NCBI GenBank assembly: GCA_903944345.1
Contig: CAJARJ010000016.1
Coordinates: 25,852 to 89,851, forward strand
DNA: 64,000 bases
DNA from: Candidatus Omnitrophota bacterium
GTDB lineage: Bacteria > Omnitrophota > Gorgyraeia > Zapsychrales > Fredricksoniimonadaceae
Reading direction: 5' to 3'
Part shown: positions 34,226 through 46,780 of the stretch, piece by piece
Layout of the letters: each line of letters opens with the position of its first letter
Position numbering within the stretch: position 1 is the first letter of the stretch
The notes under the pieces: generated by a model
The model's database searches: none
What the model saw: only the letters and a program-made list of their open reading frames with translations
What the model was told of the DNA's origin: nothing
Made by a program: the position numbers and the translations under genes

Positions 34226-34339
34226 ATCCGGCAAAGAGGGACGGCTGTGAATTGGCTGTTTTTCTATTGCGGGTGGAGTCCGAAAGCGTTAAGATCAACA
34301 GAGTGGTTATGGCGGATTGTTAACAGAGGGGTACTGGCT

Positions 34340-34789
34340 ATGTCTAAAAGTAAGGATTTTTGGTTTGTCGGAATTCTTGTTGGCATCGCGGTTGTTCTTG
34401 CGTTCTTTGCTTTTTCCAGGCAACCCGAGCGCGTTCTTTCCGGGCCTGCAGGTGAGCAGGCTTTGGTCAAGCCTGGGCAGGCCCCCGAACAGACGGCCAC
34501 CCAGGACACCAAGACTTTTCCTACTATGCTGACGCCTTTACATGAAGTGGAGTCCAGGAAAACTTTTTCGATACAGGTGTATTCTTTCAAGGAAAAAGAG
34601 CGTGCCGAGACTGCTTTGAAAGCGCTGAAGGATAAGAATTATCCCGCTTTTATCATGGTCAGCGATATTGGTGACCGCGGTATTTGGTATCGGGTTCGTG
34701 TTGGCAGTTTCACTGATGAGAATGAAGCCAAAAGAATTCTGGATTTATTGGTTCAGGATTTCAAAAACGGGATTATTGTTTCTGAATAG
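34340..34789 (+). CDS. SPOR domain-containing protein (septal peptidoglycan binding)
   Basis: N-terminal TM segment. C-terminal SPOR …FSIQVYSFKEKERAETALKALKDKNYPAFIMVSDIGDRGIWYRVRVGSFTDENEAKRI… The start is at the internal ATG. Confidence 0.75.
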   Translation: MSKSKDFWFVGILVGIAVVLAFFAFSRQPERVLSGPAGEQALVKPGQAPEQTATQDTKTFPTMLTPLHEVESRKTFSIQVYSFKEKERAETALKALKDKNYPAFIMVSDIGDRGIWYRVRVGSFTDENEAKRILDLLVQDFKNGIIVSE

Positions 34790-34828
34790 TTAAGCAAAAC
34801 ATTCACGATTGCTTTGCGGAGCAGGATT

Positions 34829-35425
34829 ATGAAAAGAAATTTAGCAGGTCTTTGTTTGTGTGTGATTGCAAGTCTGGCGGGATGTGCTACGCAGGTTGTC
34901 CGTAAGGATCCCGCGGAGATTATTGATCTTTCCGGAAGGTGGAATGATTCGGATGCACAGATGACCGCCGAGGAAATGATTCGTGAATGTTTGCAGGCCG
35001 CCTGGCTCGGCAAATTTAATAAAGCAGAAGGCCGCGATCCTGTGGTGATTACGGGAACAATTGTTAATCGCAGCCATGAACACATTGATGCCGGTATTTT
35101 TGTAGAAGATATTTCCAGGGTTTTGATCAATTCGGGGAAGGTTCGTTTTGTCGCTTCTGATCTGGATCGCCAGGAAGTGCGTCAGGAACGTCTTGATCAG
35201 CAAGAGAATTCTGCGGAAGCCACGCGAGCTCTGTTGCGACAGGAGACCGGAGCGGATTTCATGTTGAAGGGGGATATTTCCTCGATTAAAGATGAGGTCA
35301 AAGGCCGTTATGCTATTCTTTATCAGGTTGATCTGGTGCTGATTGACCTGACGACCAACGAAAAGGTCTGGATTGGTCAGAAAAAGATCAAGAAATTGGT
35401 CAAGAATCCGAAATATTCTTTCTGA
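34829..35425 (+). CDS. LpoB-like lipoprotein (penicillin-binding protein activator LpoB family-like)
   Basis: Lipobox MKRNLAGLCLCVIASLAGCA. …DLSGRWNDSDAQMTAEEMIRECL…PVVITGTIVNRSHEHID… follows the LpoB globular-domain pattern. Confidence 0.5.
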   Translation: MKRNLAGLCLCVIASLAGCATQVVRKDPAEIIDLSGRWNDSDAQMTAEEMIRECLQAAWLGKFNKAEGRDPVVITGTIVNRSHEHIDAGIFVEDISRVLINSGKVRFVASDLDRQEVRQERLDQQENSAEATRALLRQETGADFMLKGDISSIKDEVKGRYAILYQVDLVLIDLTTNEKVWIGQKKIKKLVKNPKYSF

Positions 35426-35442
35426 AATCCATCCAGTATGCC

Positions 35443-36801
35443 ATGCTTCTTTTGTTCCGTGATTTACGGATATCCTCTTTATTTTTGTTGACCGGAGCCC
35501 TTTGTTTTTCCTCTTGTGCTTCAGTTCCCCGGCTACAGTCACAGGTCATGGCTCTTTCGTCAGTCGGAAAATTTGACGAGGCGGCAGACCGCCTTCGCTC
35601 CTCAGGTGCGAGTTACGGGTCTGGCAATGATTTGCTTTTCTGGCTTGACCGGGGGTTGACAGAACAGTCCGCAGGACGCTATCAGGATAGCATTGAAAGT
35701 TTTGAAAAAGCCAAAGGCCTGTTTCGGGAACTTTATACCACATCATTGACTCAGGAGGGAGCCAGCTGGCTTTTTAATGACCGTGCGCAGGCTTATCGGG
35801 GGGCAGATTATGAATATGTCTTGCTTAATGTTTTTCAGGCTATCAATTTTGTCATGATGGGGAACGTCGTGGAGGCTTTAGTTGAGGCCCGGGATCTGGA
35901 TGCCAGGGTTCAGGTCTTTGACAGTGAAGCCTATCGCAAGCAGAGGGGGGATCATTTTGAAGATAATGGGTTTGCCAGGTTGTGGTTCGGGCTTTTGTAT
36001 GAGGCTTTGGGAGGGACAGCAGCGTTAAATGATGCCTGGATTTCCTACCGGCAGTCTTTGCTTGTTTATGATAATTATTATGAGAAAAAATATGTGCCCT
36101 TGCTCTTGCAGGAGGAGCTTATTTCTTCGGCAATGTATTTTCAGGATGACGAGCTTGCTGTTTTGCAGACCAGATTTCCGACTGCCAGGCCGATGGCTTT
36201 GGCGCAGAAACAGCAAAAAGCCAGGATTTACGTGATCTGTTTTCTTGGGCAGGCTCCGGCGAAAGTTTCAGACAGTATTTTGATCCCCGTTGGAGACGGG
36301 ATGGTGACCAGCTTTTCTTTGCCAAGACTTGTTCGTCGTCCCAGTGAAGTGGTCGGAGCCAGGATTCAGGTGGTTGGCGATGGCCCGCAACAGACAGTCG
36401 AAACAGAGCTTGGAGTTGATATTGCTGATTTGGCTGAACGGGCAATTATATCTGGTCGAGCATGGCTTGTTGCCAAAGCGGCCCTCCGTCCGGCATTGAA
36501 ACAGCTTGTTTTACGTCAGCAAAAAAAGAATCTTGAGAAGCGTTTCGGGGGGGAGGCTGGCTTTGTGTTTGGCTTGCTGGCCAGTGCGTATAATCTTTAC
36601 TCCGAGCAGGCTGACTTGCGTTCCTGGGAAATCTTGCCGGAGCAAATCAGGGTGGCCAGAATTTTTGTCGATCCCGGGCAATATCGAATGTTCCTTGAGG
36701 GAGTTGATGTTCGTGGAGACGGGGTTAAGAACACGGAACTGGGTAGTTACGAGTTGAAGGCGGGTGAAACAATTTATATTCTCAGAAGAATATTGCCTTA
36801 A
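35443..36801 (+). CDS. hypothetical lipoprotein (452 aa), possibly helical-repeat
   Basis: …LFLLTGALCFSSCAS lipobox. No catalytic motifs. Confidence 0.5.
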   Translation: MLLLFRDLRISSLFLLTGALCFSSCASVPRLQSQVMALSSVGKFDEAADRLRSSGASYGSGNDLLFWLDRGLTEQSAGRYQDSIESFEKAKGLFRELYTTSLTQEGASWLFNDRAQAYRGADYEYVLLNVFQAINFVMMGNVVEALVEARDLDARVQVFDSEAYRKQRGDHFEDNGFARLWFGLLYEALGGTAALNDAWISYRQSLLVYDNYYEKKYVPLLLQEELISSAMYFQDDELAVLQTRFPTARPMALAQKQQKARIYVICFLGQAPAKVSDSILIPVGDGMVTSFSLPRLVRRPSEVVGARIQVVGDGPQQTVETELGVDIADLAERAIISGRAWLVAKAALRPALKQLVLRQQKKNLEKRFGGEAGFVFGLLASAYNLYSEQADLRSWEILPEQIRVARIFVDPGQYRMFLEGVDVRGDGVKNTELGSYELKAGETIYILRRILP

Positions 36802-37614: not shown

Positions 37615-38202
37615 ATGCCCCAAGAAATTCCAGGCATCCAGAATCGCGAACTTTATGAGTATTCCCAAATTCTGATTGCGGCAGTTAAAAAAATGTTGCA
37701 CCTCAAGGGTGGACTTGTTCTGTCTACCGAGCCGGATATTACTGAAGAGAAGATTGTTGAATTCGGACGCCGGATGCGGGTGGATGGGTTGTCCAAGTTT
37801 TCCGAGAAGACAGTTTTCTCTAATATTGTTTTTTATTTGAGTAAAACGGAAATGGACAATAAACAGGCAATAGGCAGTCTGGTCTTTTATATTCCGATCA
37901 GTTATATTGCAAAATTGTTGTGGATCTTTGATTATCCCCGGATTGATGAAGACGATGAAACGGCTGTTCTTGATGGTTGCGGGACGGTTGCAAACCTTTT
38001 GGCTGGCTGGTTTGTCAAGGGATTGTGTGGCTTTGGCTATATTCATCTGGAAATGTCACATTTCGAAAGTTTTATTAATACGGCAGTTAATGGTGTTGAA
38101 TTTTCGTCCGATCAAACAGTAAAACATCGGATAGATTTTTGTATCAAGGGTCAGAAAAAACTGGTTGCAGAGTTAACCATGGGGTATATTCCGCGTTATT
38201 AG
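37615..38202 (+). CDS. hypothetical protein, possibly CheX/CheC-like phosphatase
   Basis: …DETAVLDGCGTVANLLAGWF… resembles the E-x2-N…ANMIAG helix of CheX. It is immediately downstream of the receiver gene. Confidence 0.35.
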   Translation: MPQEIPGIQNRELYEYSQILIAAVKKMLHLKGGLVLSTEPDITEEKIVEFGRRMRVDGLSKFSEKTVFSNIVFYLSKTEMDNKQAIGSLVFYIPISYIAKLLWIFDYPRIDEDDETAVLDGCGTVANLLAGWFVKGLCGFGYIHLEMSHFESFINTAVNGVEFSSDQTVKHRIDFCIKGQKKLVAELTMGYIPRY

Positions 38203-38293: not shown

Positions 38294-38914
38294 ATGATCT
38301 CCAGGAAACTGTTAACGGTTTTTGTTGTGGCCGGGGGGATTGCGGCTGTATTGATGGTGCAAACAGTTTTCTCTGGCAGATGGAATTCTGTCCAGGTCAA
38401 GCCCCAGCGTCTCAAGGGAGATCTTGCGGCGGAAGTCATTGTGCTGGAGTTTACGGATTTTCAGTGTCCGGCTTGTGCTCAGGCCGCGCTTATGGTTGAG
38501 AAAATCGTCAGGCAGAATCCCGGCAAGCTGGCGGTCGAGCATAAATATTTTCCTCTTTCCTCTCATAAGAATTCGCTTCCGGCGGCCTTGTTTGCTGAGT
38601 GTGCCTTGAGGCAGGGGTATTTCTGGCCGGCACATGATCTCATATTCAGAACACAGAGTCAGTGGCAGGGTCTGGCAGATCCGTGGCCTTTTTTTATGTC
38701 GAGGGCGCAAAGTCTGGGGTTGGATGTGCAGCAGATAGAAGAGTGCTCCAGGGATCCTGAGTCGTTGCGGGTTATCGAGGCGGATATGAATGAGGGCAAG
38801 CGGCGTGGGGTGCGAGCGACGCCGACTTTTATTGTGCATGATGAGTTGGCTGTAGGGCTTGATGATCTCAGGCAGAAGATAAATCTGGAAGGTGATTTAA
38901 AATCCGGACGTTAA
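38294..38914 (+). CDS. DsbA-like thioredoxin-fold thiol:disulfide oxidoreductase (membrane-anchored/exported)
   Basis: N-terminal signal anchor. CPAC active site in …EFTDFQCPACAQAALMVEKIV…. Confidence 0.8.
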   Translation: MISRKLLTVFVVAGGIAAVLMVQTVFSGRWNSVQVKPQRLKGDLAAEVIVLEFTDFQCPACAQAALMVEKIVRQNPGKLAVEHKYFPLSSHKNSLPAALFAECALRQGYFWPAHDLIFRTQSQWQGLADPWPFFMSRAQSLGLDVQQIEECSRDPESLRVIEADMNEGKRRGVRATPTFIVHDELAVGLDDLRQKINLEGDLKSGR

Positions 38915-38916
38915 GA

Positions 38917-39360
38917 ATGTTTTTTGTGTTTCTACGATGGATTACAGGATTTGTTTTTCTGGTTTCGGGGATAGAAAAGCTTGTGTCTCCTCCGGAAAAT
39001 TTTCTTTATATTGTTCGTTCCTACCAGATTCTTCCTGGCTGGCTGGCCGGTCCGGTTTCGTTTCTTTTTCCTTGGGTGGAGTTCTTTGCGGCGGTTTTTC
39101 TAATACTCGGGTTCTGGCTCAGAACCGCTTTATGGGTTGCTTTATGTTTGGCGGCCGGTTTTGTGTTCTTTGTTTCCCAGGCCTTGTTCCGGGGATTGTC
39201 GATTTCAGACTGCGGTTGTTTTGGAGAGTTGATTCACCTTCAGCCCCGGCAGGTTATTATTCTGGATCTATTGATTCTTGTGGGCGCTGGATTGTGTTTG
39301 CGTCGCCTCAACCAGAGCGCACGCTGGAGCTTGGATGCCTGTTACGCCCGGAATAAATAA
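38917..39360 (+). CDS. 4-TM membrane protein of the DoxX/MauE type with CGC motif
   Basis: Four hydrophobic helices. …LSISDCGCFGE… between TM3 and TM4. The stop overlaps the next start (TAATG). Confidence 0.55.
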   Translation: MFFVFLRWITGFVFLVSGIEKLVSPPENFLYIVRSYQILPGWLAGPVSFLFPWVEFFAAVFLILGFWLRTALWVALCLAAGFVFFVSQALFRGLSISDCGCFGELIHLQPRQVIILDLLILVGAGLCLRRLNQSARWSLDACYARNK

Positions 39361-40829
39361 TGAAGAGACTGTTTGTTTTTATTATGGTTAATCTTTTTCT
39401 GTGTGCCGGCGCTTTTGGCGCAGATGGTCTGAAAGACCCCAATGTTTCGGGGACATTCTATCCTTCGTCAGGGGAGGAGTTGTTGGCGATGGTGCGCGGT
39501 TACCTTGCCTCCGGAGAGGTTGACCCGCTTCATAGTGGTGTTATTATTGCGCCGCATGCGGGGTATGTTTATTCGGGGGAAGTTGCAGGCAAGACTTTCA
39601 AAGCAGTTTCCGGGCGGAAAGTTGCCACAGTTGTTATTCTTGCTCCCAGCCATTATTATGCTTTTGAGGGGGCCTCGGTCTGGGCTGAGGGAGTTTTTCG
39701 TACGCCTTTGGGAGATGTTGCTGTTGATTCCGTACTGGCAGGGAATGTTCTTTCCTCGGACAAGCGCTTTGTTTTTGAGCGTGCGGTATTTGAACGCGAA
39801 CATGCTGTTGAGACGCAGTTACCGTTTATCCAGGCCACCTTTCCTCAGGCTAGGATTGTTCCGATCATTTTGGGCCGTCCGGATTTTGATTTATCGAACA
39901 GTCTTGGACGGGTTTTGTCTGAGGTTGTCGGTGATCGGGACGATGTGTTGATTTGTGTCAGTTCGGATCAGTCACACTTTCATCGGGACGAGGAGGCAAG
40001 AAAAATTGACCAGCGTGGATTGGCGGCCATCGAGCAAATGGACGTCAGGGCCTTCTGGAACGGTCATGTTGATGGTAGTATGGAAGTTGATGCCTTTCAT
40101 GCGATTACGGCGGCCATGATTTATGCCGGGAACAAAGGGCACAATATCGTCAGAATTGTTGATTACAAGACTTCTTTTGACACGACCCGGGACAGTTCCC
40201 GTGTTGTAGGTTACGCAGGCGTTCTTATATCAAGTCCTCCTTTGGAGAAGGCTTCCAAACAGTTGGATTCCATTAGGGATGACGGGGGTCTTTCGGATCA
40301 GCAGCGGGCACGTCTGTTGGAAATTGCGAGGAGTACGCTGGACATGTTTGTCCGGACTGGAAAGATACCGGCTTTTGTTGAATCCGACGCTCGCCTTCGG
40401 GCTGAGGAGGGAGCGTTTGTGACGCTGCGCCATCAGGGTCAGTTGCGCGGCTGTATCGGCAACATTTTAGGCCGTGGACCGCTTTTTAATATGGTGCGGG
40501 ATATGGCGGTGGCTGCGGCTTCAGAAGACCCGCGTTTTCCTGGTGTAACACCTGGGGAACTTTCCGAGATCAAGATAGAGATTTCGGTTCTATCCAGACC
40601 GCGGCGGATTGCCACTCCAAACGAGGTTGTGCTGGGCAAACACGGAGTTATTGTCAGTCGGGGCGGAAGAAAGGGAGTCTTTTTGCCCCAGGTCGCAGTT
40701 GAGACCGGATGGGATCTTGAGCGTTTTTTGTCGGAGCTTTGTGTTCAGAAAACGGGTCTTTCTGCGGATGCCTGGAAAGATGCCGCGACAACCCTGGAAG
40801 TGTTTACAGCAGATGTTTTTGGTGAATAG
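39360..40829 (+). CDS. Memo-like (AmmeMemoRadiSam system protein B) / AMMECR1 fusion protein with N-terminal Sec signal peptide
   Basis: N-terminal MKRLFVFIMVNLFLCAGAFGA↓DG (n-h-c regions, AxA-like site). Memo motifs …SGTFYP…, …GVIIAPHAGYVYSGEVAG…, …VCVSSDQSHF… The C-terminal AMMECR1 domain carries the conserved …LRGCIGNI…. Confidence 0.8.
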   Translation: MKRLFVFIMVNLFLCAGAFGADGLKDPNVSGTFYPSSGEELLAMVRGYLASGEVDPLHSGVIIAPHAGYVYSGEVAGKTFKAVSGRKVATVVILAPSHYYAFEGASVWAEGVFRTPLGDVAVDSVLAGNVLSSDKRFVFERAVFEREHAVETQLPFIQATFPQARIVPIILGRPDFDLSNSLGRVLSEVVGDRDDVLICVSSDQSHFHRDEEARKIDQRGLAAIEQMDVRAFWNGHVDGSMEVDAFHAITAAMIYAGNKGHNIVRIVDYKTSFDTTRDSSRVVGYAGVLISSPPLEKASKQLDSIRDDGGLSDQQRARLLEIARSTLDMFVRTGKIPAFVESDARLRAEEGAFVTLRHQGQLRGCIGNILGRGPLFNMVRDMAVAAASEDPRFPGVTPGELSEIKIEISVLSRPRRIATPNEVVLGKHGVIVSRGGRKGVFLPQVAVETGWDLERFLSELCVQKTGLSADAWKDAATTLEVFTADVFGE

Positions 40830-40859
40830 ATCTTTTGTTAGTCAGGAAAGGATTATGAT

Positions 40860-41120
40860 ATGGCAGCTAATGATGTGAAGTCTGAGGGCGGAAAATCGAA
40901 GAAAAAGGGCAAACGACGTGAGGTAGCCGAAGAGCGTAAGCCGCTTTTCTCGGATCGGCAGCGGAAGATATTTCTGATATTGATTGCAGCCATGCTGATT
41001 CTTGTTCCGGTAGCTGATAATTTCCGCTGCAAGGCAGCTTGCCTCAAGAAGGTCAAGACTCCTTATCCGGAGATCGCTTGCAGTTATGAATGTCCGTGGC
41101 CGTGGCAGCGTTCGCGTTAG
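40860..41120 (+). CDS. small single-pass membrane protein with twin CxxxC motifs
   Basis: 86 aa. Basic N-terminus, one TM (IFLILIAAMLILVPV), then CKAAC…CSYEC. AGGAAAGG RBS. Confidence 0.35.
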   Translation: MAANDVKSEGGKSKKKGKRREVAEERKPLFSDRQRKIFLILIAAMLILVPVADNFRCKAACLKKVKTPYPEIACSYECPWPWQRSR

Positions 41121-41126
41121 GATTCT

Positions 41127-42224
41127 ATGGGGCGCAATGATGTCCGTAATTTATGGATTTTTACTGCGCTGGTTATTGTTATCGGCTTGGTCGCTCTTTT
41201 CAGTGCTTCGCATGAGAACCTCCGGGTTGAGCGCAAGATTTTTTATGACCAGCTCTTTGGCGCCGTGCTTGGAATGGGGATTATGCATTCTCTTGGGCGC
41301 GTTCCGTTGCGTTTTTACTACGACATTGCCTATCCGTTCTATGCTTTGAGCGTGGTTTTGCTGCTGCTGGTTCTTGTTGCAGGGCATTCGGCGCTGGGTG
41401 CTACGCGTTGGTTTAATGTGTTTGGTGTCCGTTTTCAGCCCTCGGAACTTTCCAAAGTCGCTGTTATTCTCATGCTTGCCCGTTATTTTAGTCAGCGTCC
41501 GCCCAAGCTCTCTTTTAGTCTGAGAAGTTCTTTTGATTTTCTCAGACGGGATTTGCTGGTGCCGTTGCTTCTGACGCTCTTGTCTTTCGGACTTATTTTT
41601 AAACAACCGGATCTTGGGAGTGCGCTTCTGGTGTTCGGGATTTTTATTGTCATGCTTTATGCCAGCGGGGTGGCGGTCGGTATTTTTAACGCTTTTCTAT
41701 GCTGCTGTGCTGTTATGGTTCCTGTGGGGTGGCATTTTCTCAAGGAATATCAACGTAACCGTTTGCTGGTTTTTCTTAACCCCAATATCGATCCTCTGGG
41801 AACCGGGTATAATATCATTCAGTCCAGGATTGCGGTGGGGTCAGGGCAATTGTTTGGCAAAGGATGGTTTTCAGGAACGCAGAATCAGTTGAATTTTCTT
41901 CCGGAGAGACACACGGATTTTATTTTCTCAGTGATTGGAGAAGAGTGGGGGTATATAGGGGGAGTTGCTTTGCTGGGTTGTTATTTTATGCTTGCGCATA
42001 CGGGCCTGCATATTGCCCAGGGGCTCAAGGATCGTTTTGCCCGTCAGGTTGCACTGGGGATTACGGCTATTCTGGTTCTGCAGGTGGTAATCAATATTTC
42101 TATGACCATCGGGTTGGCGCCGGTTGTCGGGATCACTCTTCCTTTGGTCAGTTATGGACGGACATCTTTTCTTGTGTTTATGGTGATGATGGGAATCCTT
42201 CTTAGTCTCTCTCGTCGACGCTGA
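41127..42224 (+). CDS. SEDS-family peptidoglycan glycosyltransferase (FtsW/RodA)
   Basis: 10-TM SEDS architecture. …LGSALLVFGIFIVMLYASG…, …GTGYNIIQSRIAVGSGQLFGKGW…. Confidence 0.85.
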   Translation: MGRNDVRNLWIFTALVIVIGLVALFSASHENLRVERKIFYDQLFGAVLGMGIMHSLGRVPLRFYYDIAYPFYALSVVLLLLVLVAGHSALGATRWFNVFGVRFQPSELSKVAVILMLARYFSQRPPKLSFSLRSSFDFLRRDLLVPLLLTLLSFGLIFKQPDLGSALLVFGIFIVMLYASGVAVGIFNAFLCCCAVMVPVGWHFLKEYQRNRLLVFLNPNIDPLGTGYNIIQSRIAVGSGQLFGKGWFSGTQNQLNFLPERHTDFIFSVIGEEWGYIGGVALLGCYFMLAHTGLHIAQGLKDRFARQVALGITAILVLQVVINISMTIGLAPVVGITLPLVSYGRTSFLVFMVMMGILLSLSRRR

Positions 42225-42252
42225 AGTATGGTCTTTTTTTCTCCGGAGCGCG

Positions 42253-42281
42253 TTGACAAAGGTAATCTCGCTCGTTATAGT
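42253..42281 (+). promoter_or_regulatory. near-consensus sigma70 promoter (TTGACA-17-TATAGT)
   Basis: Seen directly. It lies ~90 nt upstream of the ATG at 42369 and inside the 5' part of track ORF 42228..42818. Confidence 0.5.
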
Positions 42282-42368
42282 GATAAAGATGCTGATCCGG
42301 CTTTCTGGTTAGCCATTCTTCAATCTGAGTTCCTTCGCAGGAGGGGGCTCTTTCACGGACTGATCAAT

Positions 42369-42818
42369 ATGCGTTTTGAACGGGTATCTGGCAAGCAGTT
42401 GGGCGAGTTGCTGATCGAACGTGGAGTGCTCGATCGCGACGCTTTAGCTTCTGCTCTGGAGCACAAGAAAAATCATCCGGATCTTTTGTTGGGAGAAATT
42501 CTTGTCAATTCGGGCAAGGTCACCGAGGAAGACATTGTCCAGGCCTTGACCTCCCAGTACGGTTTCCCGTATTTGCCATTGGGCAATTATGAAATTGATA
42601 AAGAAACGCTGGCGGTTATTCCACGAAATCTTTGCTGGCAGTACTGTTTAATTCCTATCGACAGAATTGGCAAGAGCCTTACTCTGGCAATTTCCAACCC
42701 CCTGAATCTGGAAGCTCTTGAGGATGTTGAATTGCTGACGGGATGTGCCACCCAGGTTTTCGTCAGTACATCCCGGGATATTCGTGATGCCATCCAACGT
42801 TATTATGGTTCGGCATAA
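42369..42818 (+). CDS. stand-alone T2SSE_N / MshEN-like domain protein
   Basis: Two 24-residue motifs separated by exactly 5 residues: QLGELLIERGVLDRDALASALEHK-KNHPD-LLLGEILVNSGKVTEEDIVQALTSQ. The start is taken at the ATG at 42369, downstream of the promoter. Confidence 0.75.
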   Translation: MRFERVSGKQLGELLIERGVLDRDALASALEHKKNHPDLLLGEILVNSGKVTEEDIVQALTSQYGFPYLPLGNYEIDKETLAVIPRNLCWQYCLIPIDRIGKSLTLAISNPLNLEALEDVELLTGCATQVFVSTSRDIRDAIQRYYGSA

Positions 42819-44545
42819 TGGCTACTTTCAAGGATCGTATCAAGGCCGTTCTTATCAGGGATCAGATCCTAAAGGCGGAAGATCTTGAGCTTGCCCTGGA
42901 GGAACAAAAGAAGACCGGAGGGGAGCTCTCCGGTATTCTCATCCGTCTTGGAATGATTAATGAAGAGCAGCTTGCGTATCTTCTAAGTGAAGGGCTCAGC
43001 CTTCCGGTTCTTGATATTGCCCGGATGCGTCTTGATCCTGATGTTGTCAGCATTATCCCTCCTGAAGTCTTGCGAAAGTATCATATTCTCCCTGTATCCC
43101 GTCTTGGCAATAATATTTCTTTGGCTATGGTTGACCCGTTGAATATTTTTGTGATTGATAATGTCAAAGCCTTGACAGGGCTGACCATATCGCCGGTTAT
43201 TGGGCGCAGCCGTGATATCCAGGAGGCGATTGAGCGATACTGTGCGCCCCGGAAGGAGGCGGACTCTTTTGCAAAAATTATGCAGGATATAAAAGGAGCC
43301 GATGATCTTGAATTGATCAGTGACGGTGTCGACAAATCTGACAGCAAAGAGACTGAGCATCTTGTCCAGGAGGCGCCGATAATTCGTTTGACCAATACGA
43401 TTATCCGTCAGGCGGTTGTCGCCAAGGCCAGCGATGTTTTTATTGAGCCGGTCGATAATGCACTGAGAATCCGCTATCGGGTCGATGGCGTGTTGCGCGA
43501 AATTGACCGTATGTCGAAGGCCTTGCATTTTCCGATAGTTTCGCGCCTGAAAGTTGTTTCCAATCTTGATATTTCGGAACACAGATTGCCTCAGGATGGC
43601 CGGTTCCGGTTAATGCTTGAGGGCGGACGGGAAGTGGACTTCAGGGTCAATGTTCTTCCGACCGCCCATGGAGAGAAGATTGTTTTGCGTGTTTTGGATA
43701 AAGGCCAGGAGCACGTGAATATTGACAATCTCGGCATTGAGCCTGAGCCTTTGCGTCAGATTAAGGAATGCGCGGTTCGTCCGCATGGGATGGTTCTGGC
43801 CTGCGGGCCGACCGGTAGCGGCAAAACGACAACACTTTATTCCATTCTCAAATTTATTGATTCTTCCGAAAAGAATATTGTGACGGTTGAAGATCCTGTG
43901 GAATATCAGATGAAGGGGCTCAATCAGGTCAATATTCGTTTTGAAGTTGGATTGACTTTTACCTCGACCTTGCGTTCGGTTCTGCGTCAGGATCCGGATG
44001 TGATTATGATTGGTGAAATTCGTGATTCGGAGACGCTGGACATTGCGGTTAAAGCAGCGTTGACCGGGCATATGGTTCTGAGTTCTTTGCATACGACTAC
44101 CGCGGCGGGTTCTGTGGTTAGAATGATTAATATGGGGATTCAGCCGTTTCTGGTTTGTGCATCGGTCAACTGTTTTATGGCCCAGCGACTGTTGCGCAAG
44201 ATATGCCCCAAGTGCAAGGAGGAAATTCGTATTTCGGAAACCTTGTATAACAAGTTGATGATTGCCAGGGTTCTGCCCGGCAAGGATATGGTCTTCTGGA
44301 AGGGCCGGGGGTGTAACCATTGCCAGGGGTCAGGTTACAGCAGCCGCCTCGTTGTCAGCGAAGTTCTGGTTCTTTCGCCAGCGGTCAAGAAGCGGATACT
44401 TTCCGGTTCGGGGGAGATGGAGATCAAATCTGTGGCGCGTGCTGAAGGTATGAAGACCATGCGCGAGGATGCGCTGCTCAAAGCTTCCCGGGGACAGACA
44501 ACTCTCGAGGAAGTGGTCAGGGTTACGGCACAGGATGAGAGTTAG
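42818..44545 (+). CDS. pilB: type IV pilus assembly ATPase PilB / GspE-family secretion ATPase (paralog 1)
   Basis: N-terminal T2SSE_N/MshEN-like motifs. Walker A GPTGSGKTTTLYS, Asp/His boxes, and a C-terminal tetracysteine CPKC…CNHC. Confidence 0.85.
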   Translation: MATFKDRIKAVLIRDQILKAEDLELALEEQKKTGGELSGILIRLGMINEEQLAYLLSEGLSLPVLDIARMRLDPDVVSIIPPEVLRKYHILPVSRLGNNISLAMVDPLNIFVIDNVKALTGLTISPVIGRSRDIQEAIERYCAPRKEADSFAKIMQDIKGADDLELISDGVDKSDSKETEHLVQEAPIIRLTNTIIRQAVVAKASDVFIEPVDNALRIRYRVDGVLREIDRMSKALHFPIVSRLKVVSNLDISEHRLPQDGRFRLMLEGGREVDFRVNVLPTAHGEKIVLRVLDKGQEHVNIDNLGIEPEPLRQIKECAVRPHGMVLACGPTGSGKTTTLYSILKFIDSSEKNIVTVEDPVEYQMKGLNQVNIRFEVGLTFTSTLRSVLRQDPDVIMIGEIRDSETLDIAVKAALTGHMVLSSLHTTTAAGSVVRMINMGIQPFLVCASVNCFMAQRLLRKICPKCKEEIRISETLYNKLMIARVLPGKDMVFWKGRGCNHCQGSGYSSRLVVSEVLVLSPAVKKRILSGSGEMEIKSVARAEGMKTMREDALLKASRGQTTLEEVVRVTAQDES

Positions 44546-44548
44546 ACT

Positions 44549-46252
44549 ATGTTGAGCATTCGTCAGAAAATCATGGATGCGTTACTGGCTATGCCAGGCG
44601 TTTCTGCTTCGCAGCTTGAGACTGCCCAGGAGGCCCAGCGGATCCAGAAAGTCTCTTTTGGTGAAGTGTTGGTCGCACAGGGGATTATTAGCGAAAAGGA
44701 TTTGTTTCTGCTTTTGGTAAGGGAGTTGCACATTCCTTCCATTAACCTGGCCAAGTTTCGTATGGATCCTCAGTTGCGGGAGCTGGTTCCGGAGCGGCTT
44801 GCGCGGCAGTATAATATGGTGCCCATTTCCTTGATGGGTGATCATATGACTGTAGCAATATCAGACCCGTTGAATGTTTTTGCTGTGGATGATTTAAGGG
44901 ATCTTACGGGTAAAGGCATAGATATTGTTATGGGAACGCCGTTGCAGATTCGTGAGGCTTTGGATAAGTTTTATGGCGCACCTGGCGAGGATACTGTGGC
45001 AGATGTTGCCAAGGGGATTGATATAGGGGATTTGGAGATTATGTCTGCTTCTGCAGATCGTACGGAATTCGCCGAGACCGGGGCGGCGGACCAGGCTCCG
45101 ATTATACGTATGGTCAATCTGGTGATCAAGGAGGCCATTCAGCAGCGGGCATCTGATATCCACATGGAACCTACGGAAACCAATATGAGGGTGCGTTACC
45201 GCGTGGATGGCGTTCTGCTGGATGTTCTTGAGATTCCTCGTGAAAGCCGGAATTCTGTTGTGGTTCGCATCAAGATCATCTCCAGAATTGATATTACGGT
45301 TAACCAGGTCCCTCAGGACGGACGTTTTAGAATGCGGGTGTCCGGTAAAGAAGTGGATTTCAGGGTTTCCATTCTTCCCACATCGCACGGATCGAAGATT
45401 GTGATGCGGATTCTTGATAAGGCCAAGCTTTCGGTTGGTTTGGGGCATTTGGGCTTTTCTCAACAGGCGGTGACCCTGATCGATGAGGCGATTGTCAAGC
45501 CGTTTGGAATGATTCTTGTCACCGGGCCTACCGGAAGCGGCAAGTCGACAACGCTTTATTCTATTATCAGCAAGCTTAATACAATTGACAAAAATATTAT
45601 TACTATTGAGGATCCTGTCGAATATCTGGTGGATGGATTGACCCAGATCGAGGCGCGAAGCGAGATCGGCTTGACTTTTGCCGCAGGACTGCGAGCAGTT
45701 CTTCGGCAGAGCCCGGACATCGTTATGGTTGGAGAAATTCGTGACAATGAGACAGCAGACATTGCGATCAAGGCAGCCTTGACCGGGCAGTTGGTTCTTT
45801 CAACCCTGCATACCAATGATGCCGCAGGAGCTATGACCCGTCTGGTGGATATGGGGGTGGAGCCGTTTCTGGTGGCGTCTTGCCTGGTGCTTATTTGTTC
45901 ACAGCGTCTGGCTCGGAAAATATGTCCGCATTGCAAGAAAGAAGTGGAGATTCCGGAGGAAACCTTGCAGTCTTTGCATTTGCCTGCGGATAAAAAGATT
46001 GTTTTTTTTGAGGGGCAAGGTTGTGAACGTTGCCGGCATACAGGTTATCTCGGGCGTTTTGGTTTGACTGAAATCCTGGTGGTGGATGATGCTATTCGGG
46101 AAATGTTGCTGCAGGGGAAGTCTTCGGACGAGATTCGGGATTATGCCCGGAGCGTAAAAGGAATGAAGCTGCTGTGGGATGACGCGCTGGACAGTCTTGC
46201 CCAGGGCAAAACGACGCTTGCTGAAGTGTGCCGTGTCGCGTCTTTTGAATAA
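44549..46252 (+). CDS. type IV pilus assembly ATPase PilB / GspE-family secretion ATPase (paralog 2)
   Basis: Same architecture as paralog 1. Walker A GPTGSGKSTTLYS, tetracysteine CPHC…CERC. Confidence 0.85.
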   Translation: MLSIRQKIMDALLAMPGVSASQLETAQEAQRIQKVSFGEVLVAQGIISEKDLFLLLVRELHIPSINLAKFRMDPQLRELVPERLARQYNMVPISLMGDHMTVAISDPLNVFAVDDLRDLTGKGIDIVMGTPLQIREALDKFYGAPGEDTVADVAKGIDIGDLEIMSASADRTEFAETGAADQAPIIRMVNLVIKEAIQQRASDIHMEPTETNMRVRYRVDGVLLDVLEIPRESRNSVVVRIKIISRIDITVNQVPQDGRFRMRVSGKEVDFRVSILPTSHGSKIVMRILDKAKLSVGLGHLGFSQQAVTLIDEAIVKPFGMILVTGPTGSGKSTTLYSIISKLNTIDKNIITIEDPVEYLVDGLTQIEARSEIGLTFAAGLRAVLRQSPDIVMVGEIRDNETADIAIKAALTGQLVLSTLHTNDAAGAMTRLVDMGVEPFLVASCLVLICSQRLARKICPHCKKEVEIPEETLQSLHLPADKKIVFFEGQGCERCRHTGYLGRFGLTEILVVDDAIREMLLQGKSSDEIRDYARSVKGMKLLWDDALDSLAQGKTTLAEVCRVASFE

Positions 46253-46324
46253 TTCAAATTTTCGCTGTTTAATCCGGAGTGCCCTAATATAATAATTTCG
46301 GAATCAATATGGGAGTAAACAATT

Positions 46325-46780
46325 ATGCCCGTATGTTGTCGGCGGAAACAACTTATCGGACGCATTCTGCTTGATCGGGGCGTGATCACCGAACCTGAAT
46401 TGCAGCAGGCGCTTTTGGCCCAGAAGAAGGTTGAGAACCGGTTTTGTCTCGGCGAGATTCTTGTGACGATGGGACGGCTTCGTGAGATAGATGTAGCGAT
46501 AGCACTGGTTATTCAGCATGGGCTTTCTTATATTGCTCTTGCCAGTCAGGACATTCATCGGGAAGTTCTTGATTTGATTCCTGCGGGGGTAGCGCGCAGT
46601 CAAAGGCTGGTGCCGCTTGATCGCATCGGTAGGGTTCTGAGCGTGGTTACGCAGAATCCCCTTAACGATGAGGCGCGAGCGGATGTGGAACACGCGACCG
46701 GCTGCCGGATTGCAACCTTTCTTTCCACGCGCTCGGAGATTGATGCGGCGCTTTCCCGTTTTTATCCGGAGACATTTTGA
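46325..46780 (+). CDS. stand-alone T2SSE_N / MshEN-like domain protein (second copy)
   Basis: …QLIGRILLDRGVITEPELQQALLAQ… and …FCLGEILVTMGRLREIDVAIALVIQ… GGGA RBS. Overlaps the pilC start. Confidence 0.75.
   Translation: MPVCCRRKQLIGRILLDRGVITEPELQQALLAQKKVENRFCLGEILVTMGRLREIDVAIALVIQHGLSYIALASQDIHREVLDLIPAGVARSQRLVPLDRIGRVLSVVTQNPLNDEARADVEHATGCRIATFLSTRSEIDAALSRFYPETF

What the first reader, a model, noticed from the sequence alone, without database searches (positions are those of the whole stretch)
38294..41120. Exported Memo-AMMECR1 fusion embedded in a thiol-disulfide module
Proteins of the AmmeMemoRadiSam system (AMMECR1 = A, Memo = B, plus a radical SAM activase) are normally separate cytoplasmic proteins. 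Here B and A are fused into one 489-aa polypeptide, with the order Memo then AMMECR1.

The fusion carries an apparent cleavable Sec signal peptide, MKRLFVFIMVNLFLCAGAFGA|DG. It sits directly upstream of the conserved Memo SGTFYP motif, so the extension is not part of the Memo domain. No radical SAM gene is adjacent.

The neighbours all point to the periplasm. Upstream is a membrane-anchored DsbA-like oxidoreductase (CPAC), then a 4-TM MauE/DoxX-like protein with a CGC motif whose stop overlaps the fusion's start (TAATG). Downstream is a small single-pass membrane protein with twin CxxxC motifs.

A periplasmic, disulfide-dependent Memo/AMMECR1 activity has not, to my knowledge, been described.
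Basis: partly seen in the sequence, partly recalled or inferred. Interest (0 to 1): 0.8.

Follow-up and report, generated by a model that had tools for sequence, protein, structure and literature searches.

The report
Exported Memo-AMMECR1 fusion in thiol-redox operon
A two-domain enzyme of unknown chemistry (relatives of the human proteins MEMO1 and AMMECR1) carries a secretion signal and sits in a conserved operon with a disulfide-exchange protein pair, a tiny cysteine-rich membrane protein and the cell-wall polymerase RodA, so this enigmatic enzyme pair probably works outside the cytoplasm on the cell envelope.

Summary
ORF 39360-40829 encodes a 489-aa Memo (AmmeMemoRadiSam B) then AMMECR1 (A) fusion. 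A textbook Sec signal precedes it, and the n/h/AxA architecture is conserved position by position in most close homologs. The genes are packed tightly: DsbA-like (CPAC), MauE (CGC), fusion, twin-CX3C microprotein, RodA. This five-gene block recurs in all eight genomes examined in this Omnitrophota clade. The DsbA-MauE-fusion core extends to more distant relatives.

Two framing points were wrong. In other clades the partner radical SAM enzyme is adjacent and has its own Tat- or Sec-like signal, which co-varies with the signal on the fusion.

The window therefore shows a local variant of a large and apparently undescribed extracytoplasmic branch of AmmeMemoRadiSam systems. In this variant a DsbA/MauE relay occupies the position that radical SAM plus DsbD_2 hold in the sister clade. 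No radical SAM gene lies in the 64 kb. The two conserved AMMECR1 cysteines are family-wide, not export-specific. Chemistry and substrate remain unknown. It is a new variant of a known kind, of moderate to high interest.

The parts
38294..38914 (+). Membrane-anchored DsbA-like thiol:disulfide oxidoreductase (206 aa). N-terminal hydrophobic anchor at about aa 6-26, CPAC active site, conserved TPTF cis-Pro loop, and a second conserved Cys pair.
   Evidence: PF13462 1.9e-25, PF01323 2.6e-14. CP[AS]C and ATPTF are invariant in 9 orthologs. GAGG lies 6 nt upstream of the ATG.
38917..39360 (+). MauE/DoxX-family 4-TM membrane protein (147 aa) with an invariant CGC[FY]G motif in the loop between TM3 and TM4. 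That loop is predicted periplasmic by the positive-inside rule (my reading of the sequence).
   Evidence: PF07291 5.1e-24, 85.4 bits against cutoff 27. CGC is invariant in 9 orthologs. The stop overlaps the fusion start.
39360..39419 (+). Sec-type signal peptide of the fusion (aa 1-20: MKRLFVFIMVNLFLCAGAFG). Predicted SPase I cleavage is A18-x-G20|A21.
   Evidence: Conserved n/h/c architecture and AxA|D/E site in homologs. AlphaFold gives a helix at 2-15, then pLDDT below 50 at residues 17-20.
39438..40223 (+). Memo domain (AmmeMemoRadiSam protein B), aa 27-288. H66, H98, D203 and H206 align with the residues I recall as the MEMO1 metal site.
   Evidence: PF01875 4e-56. TIGR04336 244.9 bits. 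Alignment to MEMO1 chains 7m8h/7kq8/3bcz. Foldseek TMt 0.82-0.84 to iron- and copper-bound MEMO1.
40317..40820 (+). AMMECR1 domain (AmmeMemoRadiSam protein A), aa 320-487, with the LRGCIG motif (C365) and a second family-wide Cys (C461). A flexible linker at about aa 296-308 precedes it.
   Evidence: PF01871 8.7e-51. TIGR04335 167.3 bits. Alignments to 1zq7, 1vaj, 1wsc. TMt 0.75 to 1vaj. Linker pLDDT below 50.
40860..41120 (+). 86-aa single-pass membrane microprotein with a Lys-rich cytoplasmic N-terminus, a TM segment, and a periplasmic tail RCKAAC-X12-CxYECPWPW (twin CX3C). The family is clade-specific.
   Evidence: Conserved in L003, L083-L087. The family has only 103 members. Always found between the fusion and RodA (in L083 present but not called). 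Predicted helix 32-64, loop, helix 70-77. No Pfam or NCBIfam family.
41127..42224 (+). RodA (SEDS peptidoglycan polymerase), 7 nt downstream of the microprotein. Last gene of the conserved five-gene block.
   Evidence: TIGR02210 382.9 bits against cutoff 336.7. PF01098 4.7e-98. Block conserved in 8 genomes.

Best explanation
The 489-aa protein is a Sec-exported, periplasm-facing, two-domain Memo-AMMECR1 enzyme. It belongs to a large, multi-phylum extracytoplasmic branch of the AmmeMemoRadiSam family.

Proposed sequence of events:
1. The protein is translocated unfolded through Sec.
2. Signal peptidase I cuts it around G20/A21.
3. It folds into a metal-binding Memo domain (H66/H98/D203/H206) and an AMMECR1 domain (LRGCIG C365 plus C461), joined by a flexible linker.

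In this Omnitrophota clade it is co-transcribed and translationally coupled with a membrane-anchored DsbA-like protein (CPAC) and a MauE-type membrane protein (periplasmic CGC). Together these form a MauD/MauE-like thiol-disulfide relay between the membrane and the periplasm.

I infer that this relay services the exported enzyme system. It could set the redox state of the two functional AMMECR1 cysteines, and/or form the two disulfides of the downstream twin-CX3C microprotein. The module takes the genomic place that a signal-bearing radical SAM enzyme plus a DsbD_2/CcdA-type reductant conduit hold in the sister clade. The substrate is most likely an envelope-located molecule rather than a nucleic acid or a cytoplasmic metabolite.

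Shown here: domain identity, operon structure, conservation of the signal and of the gene block, and co-variation of export signals. Inferred: actual export and cleavage, the relay's client, and the direction of electron flow. Unknown: the reaction catalysed.
For: Domains and catalytic motifs are intact.

Signal peptide:
- K/R n-region, an uncharged h-region of 12-16 residues, a Pro/Ser helix breaker, then small-x-small|D/E. In 80 of 115 anchored homologs, small residues make up 79% at -3 and 88% at -1, and D/E/Q/N 79% at +1.
- Phylum-appropriate variants occur: lipoprotein-like ...C[NS]SQ in Bacteroidota.
- No alternative start preserves the Memo domain.

Export signals co-vary between partners:
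- Of 40 adjacent radical SAM ORFs carrying the AmmeMemoRadiSam-type Cys motif, 26 are signal-positive on both proteins, 8 are signal-negative on both, and 6 are discordant. Fisher p = 1.3e-4, not corrected for phylogeny.
- 21 of the extensions are Tat-like (S/N-[KR]R-x-F-[LI]-K).
- Three carry a CxxCH heme-c motif, which is matured only outside the cytoplasm.
- All five representatives scanned (four with an extension, one without) score 370-395 bits on TIGR04337 against a cutoff of 220.

Operon: 2-nt and -1-nt junctions, RBS-like motifs, and no intergenic terminator-like hairpin inside the block.

Conservation:
- DsbA-MauE-fusion is found in the window, L003, L005, L006 and L083-L087 at 45-58% fusion identity.
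- The full five-gene block is found in 8 genomes, including L085 whose flanks differ on both sides.
- The redox motifs CP[AS]C and CGC are invariant.

A recurrent thiol-redox theme surrounds exported fusions: DsbD_2 immediately downstream in L008-L014 except L010 (six loci), and HTTM-DCC1 in L006/L007. A close relative that lacks the h-region (Syntrophales, L088) has no DsbA/MauE nearby.

The NJ tree places the DsbA/MauE clade as sister to the radical SAM plus DsbD_2 clade.
Against: - No dedicated signal-peptide predictor (SignalP, DeepTMHMM) was available. Export rests on heuristics and comparative patterns, with no experiment.
- Sec-type (not Tat) signals on the Fe-S radical SAM partners in the sister Omnitrophota clade are biochemically awkward. 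Fe-S assembly and SAM are cytoplasmic as far as is known. The hydrophobic N-termini in that clade could therefore have another meaning, such as membrane tethering.
- Most genomes carrying the five-gene block also share wider synteny (LpoB ... type IV pilus genes), so adjacency partly reflects common descent. Only L085, L005 and L006 break the flanks.
- The DsbA/MauE pair could be the organism's general oxidative-folding machinery.
- C365 and C461 are conserved in cytoplasmic archaeal AMMECR1, so nothing in the enzyme itself is demonstrably disulfide-adapted. I could not measure their distance in 3D.
- Whether a TIGR04337 radical SAM exists elsewhere in this genome is unknown.
Confidence: 0.55

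Rival explanations
1. The fusion is exported, but the DsbA-like/MauE pair is simply this lineage's housekeeping oxidative-folding system (an analogue of DsbA/DsbB). It lies in an envelope-biogenesis gene neighbourhood (SPOR, LpoB, RodA, pilus). Adjacency to the fusion is inherited synteny without a dedicated functional link.
For: - The wider neighbourhood (PG_binding_1, SPOR, LpoB, RodA, T2SS/T4P) is syntenic in most of the genomes that carry the block.
- Only one DsbA/MauE pair is visible in the 64 kb.
- Thioredoxin-like plus MauE/DoxX two-gene cassettes are widespread generic redox pairs (the NCBIfam hits NF041057 and NF045576, both well below their cutoffs, point to such families; the rest is my own knowledge).
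- The enzyme's conserved cysteines are not export-specific.
Against: - The trio survives where the flanks change (L085, L005, L006).
- The MauE stop overlaps the fusion start.
- Other exported-fusion clades have different thiol-redox membrane partners at the same place: DsbD_2 and HTTM-DCC1.
- None of the 24 loci whose fusion lacks a signal, nor L088, has such partners.
Confidence: 0.25
2. The block is a RodA-centred cell-wall module. The exported Memo-AMMECR1 enzyme, the twin-CX3C microprotein and the thiol relay act on or regulate the substrate or machinery of the SEDS polymerase RodA, for example by modifying lipid II or its undecaprenyl (isoprenoid) carrier, or peptidoglycan. No radical SAM partner is needed in this clade.
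For: - The microprotein is always found between the fusion and RodA, separated by 7 nt in the window, and RodA is a bona fide TIGR02210 equivalog.
- In L088 a class A PBP is the divergent neighbour of the fusion.
- Burroughs et al. 2019 (JBC 294:10211; not readable here, recalled from its abstract) linked Memo contexts to aliphatic isoprenoid modification.
- A periplasmic location excludes nucleic-acid substrates.
- No radical SAM lies within 6-10 kb in the nine distinct genomes with this arrangement for which DNA was held (window, L003, L005, L006, L083-L087), nor is one annotated within 6 kb in the tenth (no DNA held), nor in the 64-kb window.
Against: - L005, L006 and L007 keep the fusion (L005 and L006 also DsbA-MauE) without RodA or the microprotein.
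- Exported fusions in other phyla have no RodA linkage.
- No PBP2, MreBCD or lipid II genes are in the block.
- The evidence is purely contextual.
Confidence: 0.15
3. The N-terminal hydrophobic segment is not cleaved. It acts as a signal anchor that tethers the enzyme to the outer face of the cytoplasmic membrane, or, less likely, holds it on the cytoplasmic face.
For: - AlphaFold models residues 2-15 as a helix.
- The partner proteins are all membrane proteins.
- The Omnitrophota radical SAM partners have similar hydrophobic N-termini, which would be easier to reconcile with Fe-S and SAM chemistry if they stayed at the membrane.
Against: - The h-region has only about 16 uncharged residues and is followed by a conserved helix breaker and a small-x-small|acidic site. 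That pattern is typical of cleaved signals, not anchors.
- The positive n-region (K2, R3) predicts N-in, C-out.
- The Bacteroidota homologs have lipoprotein-type signals, and their radical SAM partners have Tat-type signals.
Confidence: 0.12
4. The signal peptide is an annotation artefact: a mis-called start on a cytoplasmic protein.
For: Some database homologs start inside the c-region (for example MGSAPFADDKVK...). This shows that gene callers disagree, or that the h-region can be lost.
Against: - The Memo HMM match begins at residue 27. The only downstream Met codons are M9 (inside the h-region) and M44 (inside the domain).
- The ATG overlaps the upstream stop, as in translational coupling.
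- The hydrophobic N-terminus is conserved in character but not in sequence in most homologs.
Confidence: 0.03

Closest known systems
AmmeMemoRadiSam system (TIGR04335 protein A / TIGR04336 protein B / TIGR04337 radical SAM; Memo-AMMECR1 systems of Burroughs et al. 2019)
   Same: Both the A and B domains score well above the curated cutoffs. The catalytic-site residues are conserved. Sister clades have the canonical radical SAM gene adjacent and overlapping.
   Different: - A and B are fused (this is common).
- The protein carries a Sec signal.
- No radical SAM gene lies in 64 kb.
- The radical SAM position is occupied by a DsbA-like/MauE pair.
- The system is usually discussed as cytoplasmic, and its function is unknown in any organism.
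MauD/MauE of methylamine dehydrogenase gene clusters, and generic thioredoxin-like + MauE/DoxX redox cassettes
   Same: A periplasmic CxxC thioredoxin-fold protein is paired with a 4-TM MauE-family membrane protein bearing conserved cysteines. Both are encoded next to an exported redox enzyme that depends on them (own knowledge for the mau system).
   Different: The client here would be a Memo-AMMECR1 enzyme and/or a twin-CX3C microprotein, not the disulfide-rich MADH small subunit. There are no mau genes. The partner is DsbA-like (PF13462/PF01323).
DsbA-DsbB / DsbA-VKOR oxidative folding and DsbD/CcdA reductive pathways
   Same: A membrane component with periplasm-facing cysteines exchanges electrons with a periplasmic CxxC protein. 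The sister clade uses a DsbD_2/CcdA-like protein in the same operon position.
   Different: MauE is unrelated to DsbB and VKOR. The direction of electron flow and any quinone coupling are untested. The pair is operon-dedicated rather than free-standing.
Eukaryotic MEMO1 (iron- or copper-binding redox protein) and AMMECR1; archaeal AMMECR1 structures PH0010, MM0484, ST0229
   Same: Same folds (TMt 0.82-0.84 and 0.75). The residues I recall as the MEMO1 metal site (His/His/Asp/His) are conserved, as are the LRGCIG motif and the second Cys.
   Different: The eukaryotic and archaeal proteins are separate and cytosolic or nuclear. Here they are fused, exported, and tied to thiol-disulfide partners.
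Small Tim proteins (twin CX3C) of the mitochondrial intermembrane space
   Same: A CX3C-X12-CX3C spacing on a predicted helix-loop-helix, in an oxidising extracytoplasmic compartment, next to a disulfide-generating relay.
   Different: There is no detectable homology. The protein is membrane-anchored, has 86 aa, and belongs to an Omnitrophota-specific family of about 100 members. The resemblance is by motif only (inference).

Membership tests
AmmeMemoRadiSam system | Protein B (Memo-type) matching TIGR04336 above cutoff | tested here: met
   244.9 bits against cutoff 26, aa 26-289. PF01875 190.6 bits.
AmmeMemoRadiSam system | Protein A (AMMECR1-type) matching TIGR04335 above cutoff | tested here: met
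   167.3 bits against cutoff 99, aa 318-487. PF01871 172.2 bits.
AmmeMemoRadiSam system | Dedicated radical SAM enzyme (TIGR04337) encoded with A and B | tested here: not met
   No CX3CX2C ORF of 120 aa or more in 64 kb. tblastn with three TIGR04337-type queries finds nothing in the window. None lies within 6-10 kb in the nine distinct genomes with this arrangement for which DNA was held (window, L003, L005, L006, L083-L087), and none is annotated within 6 kb in the tenth. Presence elsewhere in the genome could not be tested.
Memo / LigB-type (PCAD-Memo) superfamily | Conserved His/His/Asp/His metal-site residues and the fold | tested here: met
   H66, H98, D203 and H206 align with the PHAG, PSHH and SSDxxH motifs of MEMO1 in the HMMER alignment; the MEMO1 residue numbers (H49, H81, D189, H192) are recalled, not derived here. 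These residues are invariant in 30 homologs. Foldseek TMt 0.82-0.84 to 7kq8 and 7l5c.
AMMECR1 family | LRGCIG motif and AMMECR1 fold | tested here: met
   L362-R363-G364-C365-I366-G367 are invariant. They align to 1zq7, 1vaj and 1wsc. TMt 0.75.
Sec (SPase I) secretory proteins | Tripartite signal: positive n-region, hydrophobic h-region, c-region with small residues at -3 and -1 | tested here: met
   K2/R3; an uncharged run at residues 4-21; A18-x-G20. Clade-wide position-specific pattern. This used a heuristic, not SignalP.
Sec (SPase I) secretory proteins | Demonstrated translocation and cleavage | not testable with these tools
   Needs reporter fusions or N-terminal proteomics.
DsbA-like thioredoxin-fold oxidoreductases | Thioredoxin fold with a CxxC active site and a cis-Pro loop, located extracytoplasmically | tested here: met
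   PF13462 90.4 bits and PF01323 53.9 bits. CP[AS]C and TPTF are invariant in 9 orthologs. The N-terminal anchor was read from the sequence. Redox potential and direction were not tested.
MauE family (PF07291) | 4-TM protein matching the MauE profile, with conserved cysteines | tested here: met
   85.4 bits against cutoff 27. CGC[FY]G is invariant. Topology was inferred from the positive-inside rule only.
RodA (SEDS) | TIGR02210 equivalog score | tested here: met
   382.9 bits against cutoff 336.7.
Twin-CX3C (small Tim-like) proteins | Homology to Tim9/Tim10-type proteins | tested here: not met
   No Pfam or NCBIfam hit. Only 103 homologs, almost all named hits from Omnitrophota (one binned as Elusimicrobia). 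The resemblance is limited to the motif and the predicted hairpin.

The most novel reading that the evidence does not exclude
AmmeMemoRadiSam has a large, unrecognised extracytoplasmic branch. In it, Memo-AMMECR1, and in many phyla a Tat-exported radical SAM enzyme (sometimes with its own heme-c domain), modify an envelope substrate such as an isoprenoid lipid carrier or peptidoglycan precursor. In this Omnitrophota clade the radical SAM/DsbD_2 pair has been replaced by a DsbA/MauE thiol relay and a twin-CX3C microprotein coupled to RodA. That would make it a new redox-driven cell-envelope modification pathway, and the first radical-SAM-independent bacterial Memo-AMMECR1 system.
Probability: 0.15. 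Interest if true: 0.85.

Novelty: new variant of a known kind. Interest (0 to 1): 0.62.

Why it matters
MEMO1 and AMMECR1 are conserved from archaea to humans and are linked to human disease, yet neither has a defined reaction or substrate. The bacterial three-gene system has been the main hope for working out their chemistry.

If a major branch of the system is built for export, the substrate for that branch cannot be a nucleic acid or a cytoplasmic metabolite. It must be an envelope component, which narrows the search sharply. Export is supported by Sec, lipoprotein and Tat signals that co-vary between partners, and by thiol-relay, heme-c and polytopic-membrane partners.

It also raises a real biochemical puzzle: radical SAM enzymes that appear to be targeted outside the cytoplasm. 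The related 'type 1' arrangement occurs in Bacteroidota lineages such as Paludibacter, Mariniphaga and Prolixibacteraceae, some of which I recall include cultured species, so genetic tests may be feasible there.

The window's own variant suggests the Memo-AMMECR1 pair can work with a thiol-disulfide relay instead of a neighbouring radical SAM gene. That offers a simpler system for reconstitution.

Tried and rejected
- **Mis-called start.** Rejected. No alternative start preserves the Memo domain, and the feature is conserved.
- **Radical SAM hidden in the window.** Rejected by a motif scan and by tblastn.
- **Fusion itself as the rarity.** Rejected.
- **C365/C461 as an export-specific structural disulfide.** Rejected as a specific adaptation, because both are conserved in cytoplasmic archaeal AMMECR1. 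Their 3D distance could not be measured because the tools return no coordinates.
- **Small Cys protein as a universal partner of the fusion.** Rejected. It occurs only where RodA follows.
- **Intrinsic terminators splitting the block.** None lies in an intergenic position, and the count is not above the shuffled expectation.
- **Literature.** Nine searches found no exported Memo/AMMECR1 and no periplasmic radical SAM. The key comparative paper (Burroughs et al. 2019, PMC6664185) is not held, so prior mention of signal peptides there cannot be excluded.
- **Whether a TIGR04337 gene exists elsewhere in the same genome.** Not attempted.
- **Contig-length matching.** Used to link small-protein hits with fusion hits. 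It gave 28 of 51 matches and is only supportive.

Full report
**1. The observation**

All four ORFs exist at the stated coordinates on the + strand.

- 38294-38914 is a DsbA-like thioredoxin-fold protein (PF13462 1.9e-25, PF01323 2.6e-14).
- 38917-39360 is a MauE/DoxX-family membrane protein (PF07291 5.1e-24).
- 39360-40829 encodes 489 aa, with Memo (PF01875, aa 27-288, 4e-56) followed by AMMECR1 (PF01871, aa 320-487, 8.7e-51).
- 40860-41120 has no family hit. 41127-42224 is RodA.

NCBIfam assigns the fusion to AmmeMemoRadiSam protein B (TIGR04336, 244.9 bits, cutoff 26) and protein A (TIGR04335, 167.3 bits, cutoff 99). It assigns RodA to TIGR02210 (382.9 bits against 336.7).

The junctions are tight. 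There is GAGG before the DsbA start, a 2-nt gap between DsbA and MauE, and one shared base between the MauE stop and the fusion start (TAATG). A further 30 nt with an AGGAAAGGA motif precedes the small ORF, and 7 nt separate it from RodA. No terminator-like hairpin falls in an intergenic position inside the block, and the count is not above the shuffled expectation.

No ORF of 120 aa or more in the whole 64 kb has a CX3CX2C motif. tblastn with three AmmeMemoRadiSam-type radical SAM proteins, and with DsbD_2, SpdSyn-like, HTTM and DUF362 partners from other loci, finds nothing in the window.

**2. The N-terminus**

The sequence MKRLFVFIMVNLFLCAGAFGADGLKDPNVSG has two positive residues, then an uncharged hydrophobic run, then small residues, all before the Memo domain (the HMM match starts at residue 27). 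The only later Met codons are M9, inside the hydrophobic run, and M44, inside the domain. A mis-called start is therefore not tenable.

Most of the 120 best database homologs have the same kind of N-terminus, all fused and 455-522 aa long. I anchored them on the conserved mature N-terminus ([IVL]K.PNV[AS]G). Of 115 anchored proteins, 80 have at least 18 residues upstream of the anchor, and these show the following pattern:

- a hydrophobic block;
- Pro or Ser;
- small residues at 79% at position -3;
- a bulky residue at -2;
- small residues at 88% at -1;
- D/E/Q/N at 79% at +1.

This is the classic signal peptidase I pattern. By homology the window's site is A18-F19-G20|A21. AlphaFold (mean pLDDT 89.7) models a helix at residues 2-15, has pLDDT below 50 at 17-20, gives two confident domains, and shows a floppy linker at 296-308.

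**3. How unusual the fusion and its export are**

Neither is unusual. They come from Omnitrophota, Smithellaceae, Planctomycetia, Desulfarculaceae, Nitrospiraceae, Acidobacteriota, WOR-3, Zixibacteria, Bacteroidales, Ignavibacteria, Elusimicrobia, KSB1, Dehalococcoidia and others.

I considered all possible starts. About two thirds have a signal-like N-terminus: 55 of 82 and 57 of 82, both counts including two copies of the window. Bacteroidota versions look like lipoprotein signals (...C[NS]SQ). About 24 lack any signal.

**4. The radical SAM partners are signal-bearing too**

Forty radical SAM ORFs carrying the AmmeMemoRadiSam-type Cys motif (CNLxCxFCQNWxISQ) lie within 10 kb of fusions. All five representatives that I scanned score 370-395 bits on TIGR04337 against a cutoff of 220.

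Those next to signal-bearing fusions have a 30-90-residue N-terminal extension ahead of the TIGR04337 core:

- It is Tat-like (S/N-[KR]R-[DE]F[LI]K followed by a hydrophobic stretch) in Bacteroidota, KSB1, Acidobacteriota and Ignavibacteria.
- It is Sec-like or hydrophobic in Omnitrophota and Planctomycetia.

Those next to fusions without a signal start directly with the core. The cross-tabulation is 26 / 5 / 1 / 8 (Fisher p = 1.3e-4, uncorrected for phylogeny), and three of the six discordant loci look like threshold or start-call artefacts (L049, L076, and L055 whose fusion signal is dubious).

In L035, L056 and L068 a CxxCH heme-c motif sits between the Tat signal and the radical SAM core. 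Heme c is attached only outside the cytoplasm. Together these observations make real export of the whole system the simplest reading.

They also pose a problem. SAM and Fe-S assembly are not known outside the cytoplasm, and Sec-type signals on Fe-S enzymes (Omnitrophota) are hard to explain.

**5. Context types**

- **Type 1** (FCB group, Acidobacteriota): the fusion, a 700-830-aa polytopic membrane protein with a spermidine-synthase-like domain (PF01564) in 23 loci, and a Tat-signal radical SAM. A Tat-signal DUF362 protein is sometimes present.
- **Type 2** (Omnitrophota and Planctomycetia, L008-L014): a signal-bearing radical SAM overlapping the fusion (not detected in L010, where only 1.4 kb of upstream sequence is held), followed immediately by a DsbD_2/CcdA-like membrane protein (PF13386) in six of these loci.
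- **Type 3** (the window's clade): DsbA-like, MauE, then the fusion, with no radical SAM within 6-10 kb.

None of the 24 loci whose fusion lacks a signal has these membrane partners. An NJ tree of the mature regions puts type 3 as sister to type 2. The DsbA/MauE pair therefore occupies the place where the radical SAM (upstream) and DsbD_2 (downstream) sit in the nearest relatives.

**6. Conservation of the local block**

DsbA-MauE-fusion occurs in the following loci:

| Locus | Fusion identity to the window |
|---|---|
| L003 | 56% |
| L005 | 47% |
| L006 | 45% |
| L083, L084, L085, L086, L087 | 53-58% |
| one further contig | not determined (no DNA held) |

The full DsbA-MauE-fusion-microprotein-RodA block is present in eight genomes. 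One of them, L085, has unrelated flanks on both sides. L005 and L006 keep only the trio, preceded by PEP carboxykinase. In L006 and L007 a 210-aa membrane protein and an HTTM-DCC1 thiol oxidoreductase follow.

CP[AS]C and the TPTF loop in the DsbA-like protein, and CGC[FY]G in MauE, are invariant in nine orthologs. From the positive-inside rule (my reading) the CGC loop faces the periplasm.

A close relative lacking the h-region (Syntrophales, L088; its N-terminus M..SFADD keeps only the remnant of the c-region) has no DsbA, MauE or radical SAM within 8 kb.

**7. The microprotein**

It is real and strongly conserved...SDRQRK, a TM segment, then D.FRCKAAC-X12-CxYECPWPW, with four conserved Cys (three invariant, C78 in at least 90% of 30 sequences). 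Its family has only 103 members, almost all from this Omnitrophota clade. Of the 51 hits on contigs of 2.5 kb or more, 28 share an exact contig length with a listed fusion hit. In every locus inspected it lies between the fusion and RodA.

AlphaFold predicts the TM helix continuing to residue 64, a TPYPE loop and a second helix at 70-77. That places the two CX3C motifs on opposing helices (moderate confidence). The motif spacing resembles the twin-CX3C small Tim proteins, but there is no homology.

**8. The enzyme itself**

The Memo domain keeps H66, H98, D203 and H206, which align with the residues I recall as the MEMO1 metal site. It superposes on iron- and copper-bound MEMO1 at TMt 0.82-0.84. 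The AMMECR1 domain keeps LRGCIG (C365) and C461, and superposes on PH0010 at TMt 0.75.

Both cysteines are also present in the cytoplasmic archaeal structures 1zq7, 1vaj and 1wsc. They are family-wide functional residues, not an adaptation to an oxidising compartment. Once exported they would, however, be exposed to it. This gives a rationale for a dedicated thiol relay: DsbD_2 in type 2, and DsbA/MauE in type 3 (inference).

**9. Interpretation**

The best-supported reading is an exported Memo-AMMECR1 enzyme that is operonically coupled to a MauD/MauE-like thiol-disulfide relay, acts on an envelope-located substrate, and forms a local variant of a large extracytoplasmic branch of AmmeMemoRadiSam systems.

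The rivals are:

- a housekeeping DsbA/MauE pair with inherited synteny;
- a RodA-centred cell-wall module;
- an uncleaved anchor rather than a cleaved signal.

Only the mis-called start is close to excluded.

The reaction chemistry is unknown for the entire family. Burroughs et al. 2019 proposed nucleotide-base or isoprenoid modification (recalled from the abstract; the paper is not held). A periplasmic location would favour the isoprenoid option.

**10. Novelty and limits**

Searchable literature holds no description of exported Memo/AMMECR1 or of periplasmic radical SAM enzymes. The most relevant comparative paper could not be read, though. Databases already name these proteins 'AmmeMemoRadiSam system protein B/A'.

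Limits of this analysis:

- Export is inferred, not shown.
- No SignalP-class predictor was available.
- Genome-wide absence of the radical SAM could not be tested.
- The co-variation statistic ignores phylogeny.

I rate this a new variant of a known kind. Interest is 0.62, mainly because it constrains the unknown substrate of a conserved, disease-linked enzyme pair and exposes a puzzling class of apparently exported radical SAM enzymes.

Noticed in passing
L035:4106-5362, L056:8642-9904, L068:8661-9905: AmmeMemoRadiSam radical SAM enzymes with a Tat-like signal, followed by an insert of about 40 aa that contains a CxxCH heme-c attachment motif, ahead of the radical SAM core. This may be a built-in periplasmic electron donor.
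   Followed up: partly
L027, L029, L030, L041, L042, L046, L049, L053, L057, L064, L069, L070, L072, L076 (radical SAM ORFs listed): TIGR04337-type radical SAM enzymes with twin-arginine-type signals ([KR]R-[DE]F[LI]K). A cofactor-containing radical SAM enzyme apparently targeted to the periplasm is biochemically unexpected, because no SAM pool is known there.
   Followed up: partly
L053:1969-4446, L035:6936-9110, L027:4694-6826 and 20 further loci: A 700-830-aa polytopic membrane protein with a spermidine-synthase-like domain (PF01564; weak match to 'fused MFS/spermidine synthase') lies next to the signal-bearing fusion, usually between it and the radical SAM. It is a recurrent fourth component of the exported system in FCB-group bacteria and Acidobacteriota.
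   Followed up: partly
L008:11459-12118 and equivalents in L009, L011-L014: A DsbD_2/CcdA-like membrane protein (PF13386, motif GSGPCLxSCGP) lies immediately downstream of the exported fusion in the sister Omnitrophota/Planctomycetia clade.
   Followed up: partly
L006:11479-13403; L007: Downstream of the DsbA-MauE-fusion trio (L006) or of the fusion alone on the short L007 contig lie a 210-aa membrane protein and an HTTM (vitamin-K-carboxylase-like) domain fused to a DCC1-like thiol-disulfide oxidoreductase. This is another quinone/thiol-type partner.
   Followed up: no
L004:9989-11446; L088:8001-9449; P0035-P0038, P0043, P0046-P0050 and others: Smithellaceae/Syntrophales homologs (54-55% identical to the window protein, nested within the exported clade) start M..SFADDxVK. 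They keep the c-region remnant but lack the hydrophobic core, which is apparently a secondary loss of export, possibly after transfer from Omnitrophota. L088 sits next to a class A PBP and a DUF362-ferredoxin protein.
   Followed up: partly
L049:7877-8881; also L015, L021, L036, L066, L088: DUF362 proteins recur near fused Memo-AMMECR1 genes. In L049 the DUF362 protein has a Tat-like N-terminus (MRRRAFFKSLIG), and in L088 it carries ferredoxin-type Fe-S domains.
   Followed up: no
window 1-64000: Every substantial ORF in the 64 kb is on the + strand. GC skew is uniformly positive (0.11-0.22), giving an unbroken co-oriented gene array.
   Followed up: no
window 42228-48000: A type IV pilus / T2SS-like cluster with two MshEN-domain ATPases (575 and 567 aa) and at least two stand-alone MshEN-domain proteins (196 and 151 aa). 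This is an unusually high density of the MshEN domain, which I recall binds c-di-GMP.
   Followed up: no
window 37615-38202: A 195-aa protein with no Pfam or NCBIfam hit. It is conserved next to a response-regulator receiver gene in L003, L083, L084, L086 and L087 (and, further upstream of the trio, in L006), usually flanked by two single-domain receivers. The window has only one receiver.
   Followed up: no
window 34247-36801: A SPOR-domain protein, an LpoB-like lipoprotein and a conserved 452-aa protein with no family hit lie upstream, syntenic across the clade. This gives a peptidoglycan-related neighbourhood to the RodA-containing block.
   Followed up: no
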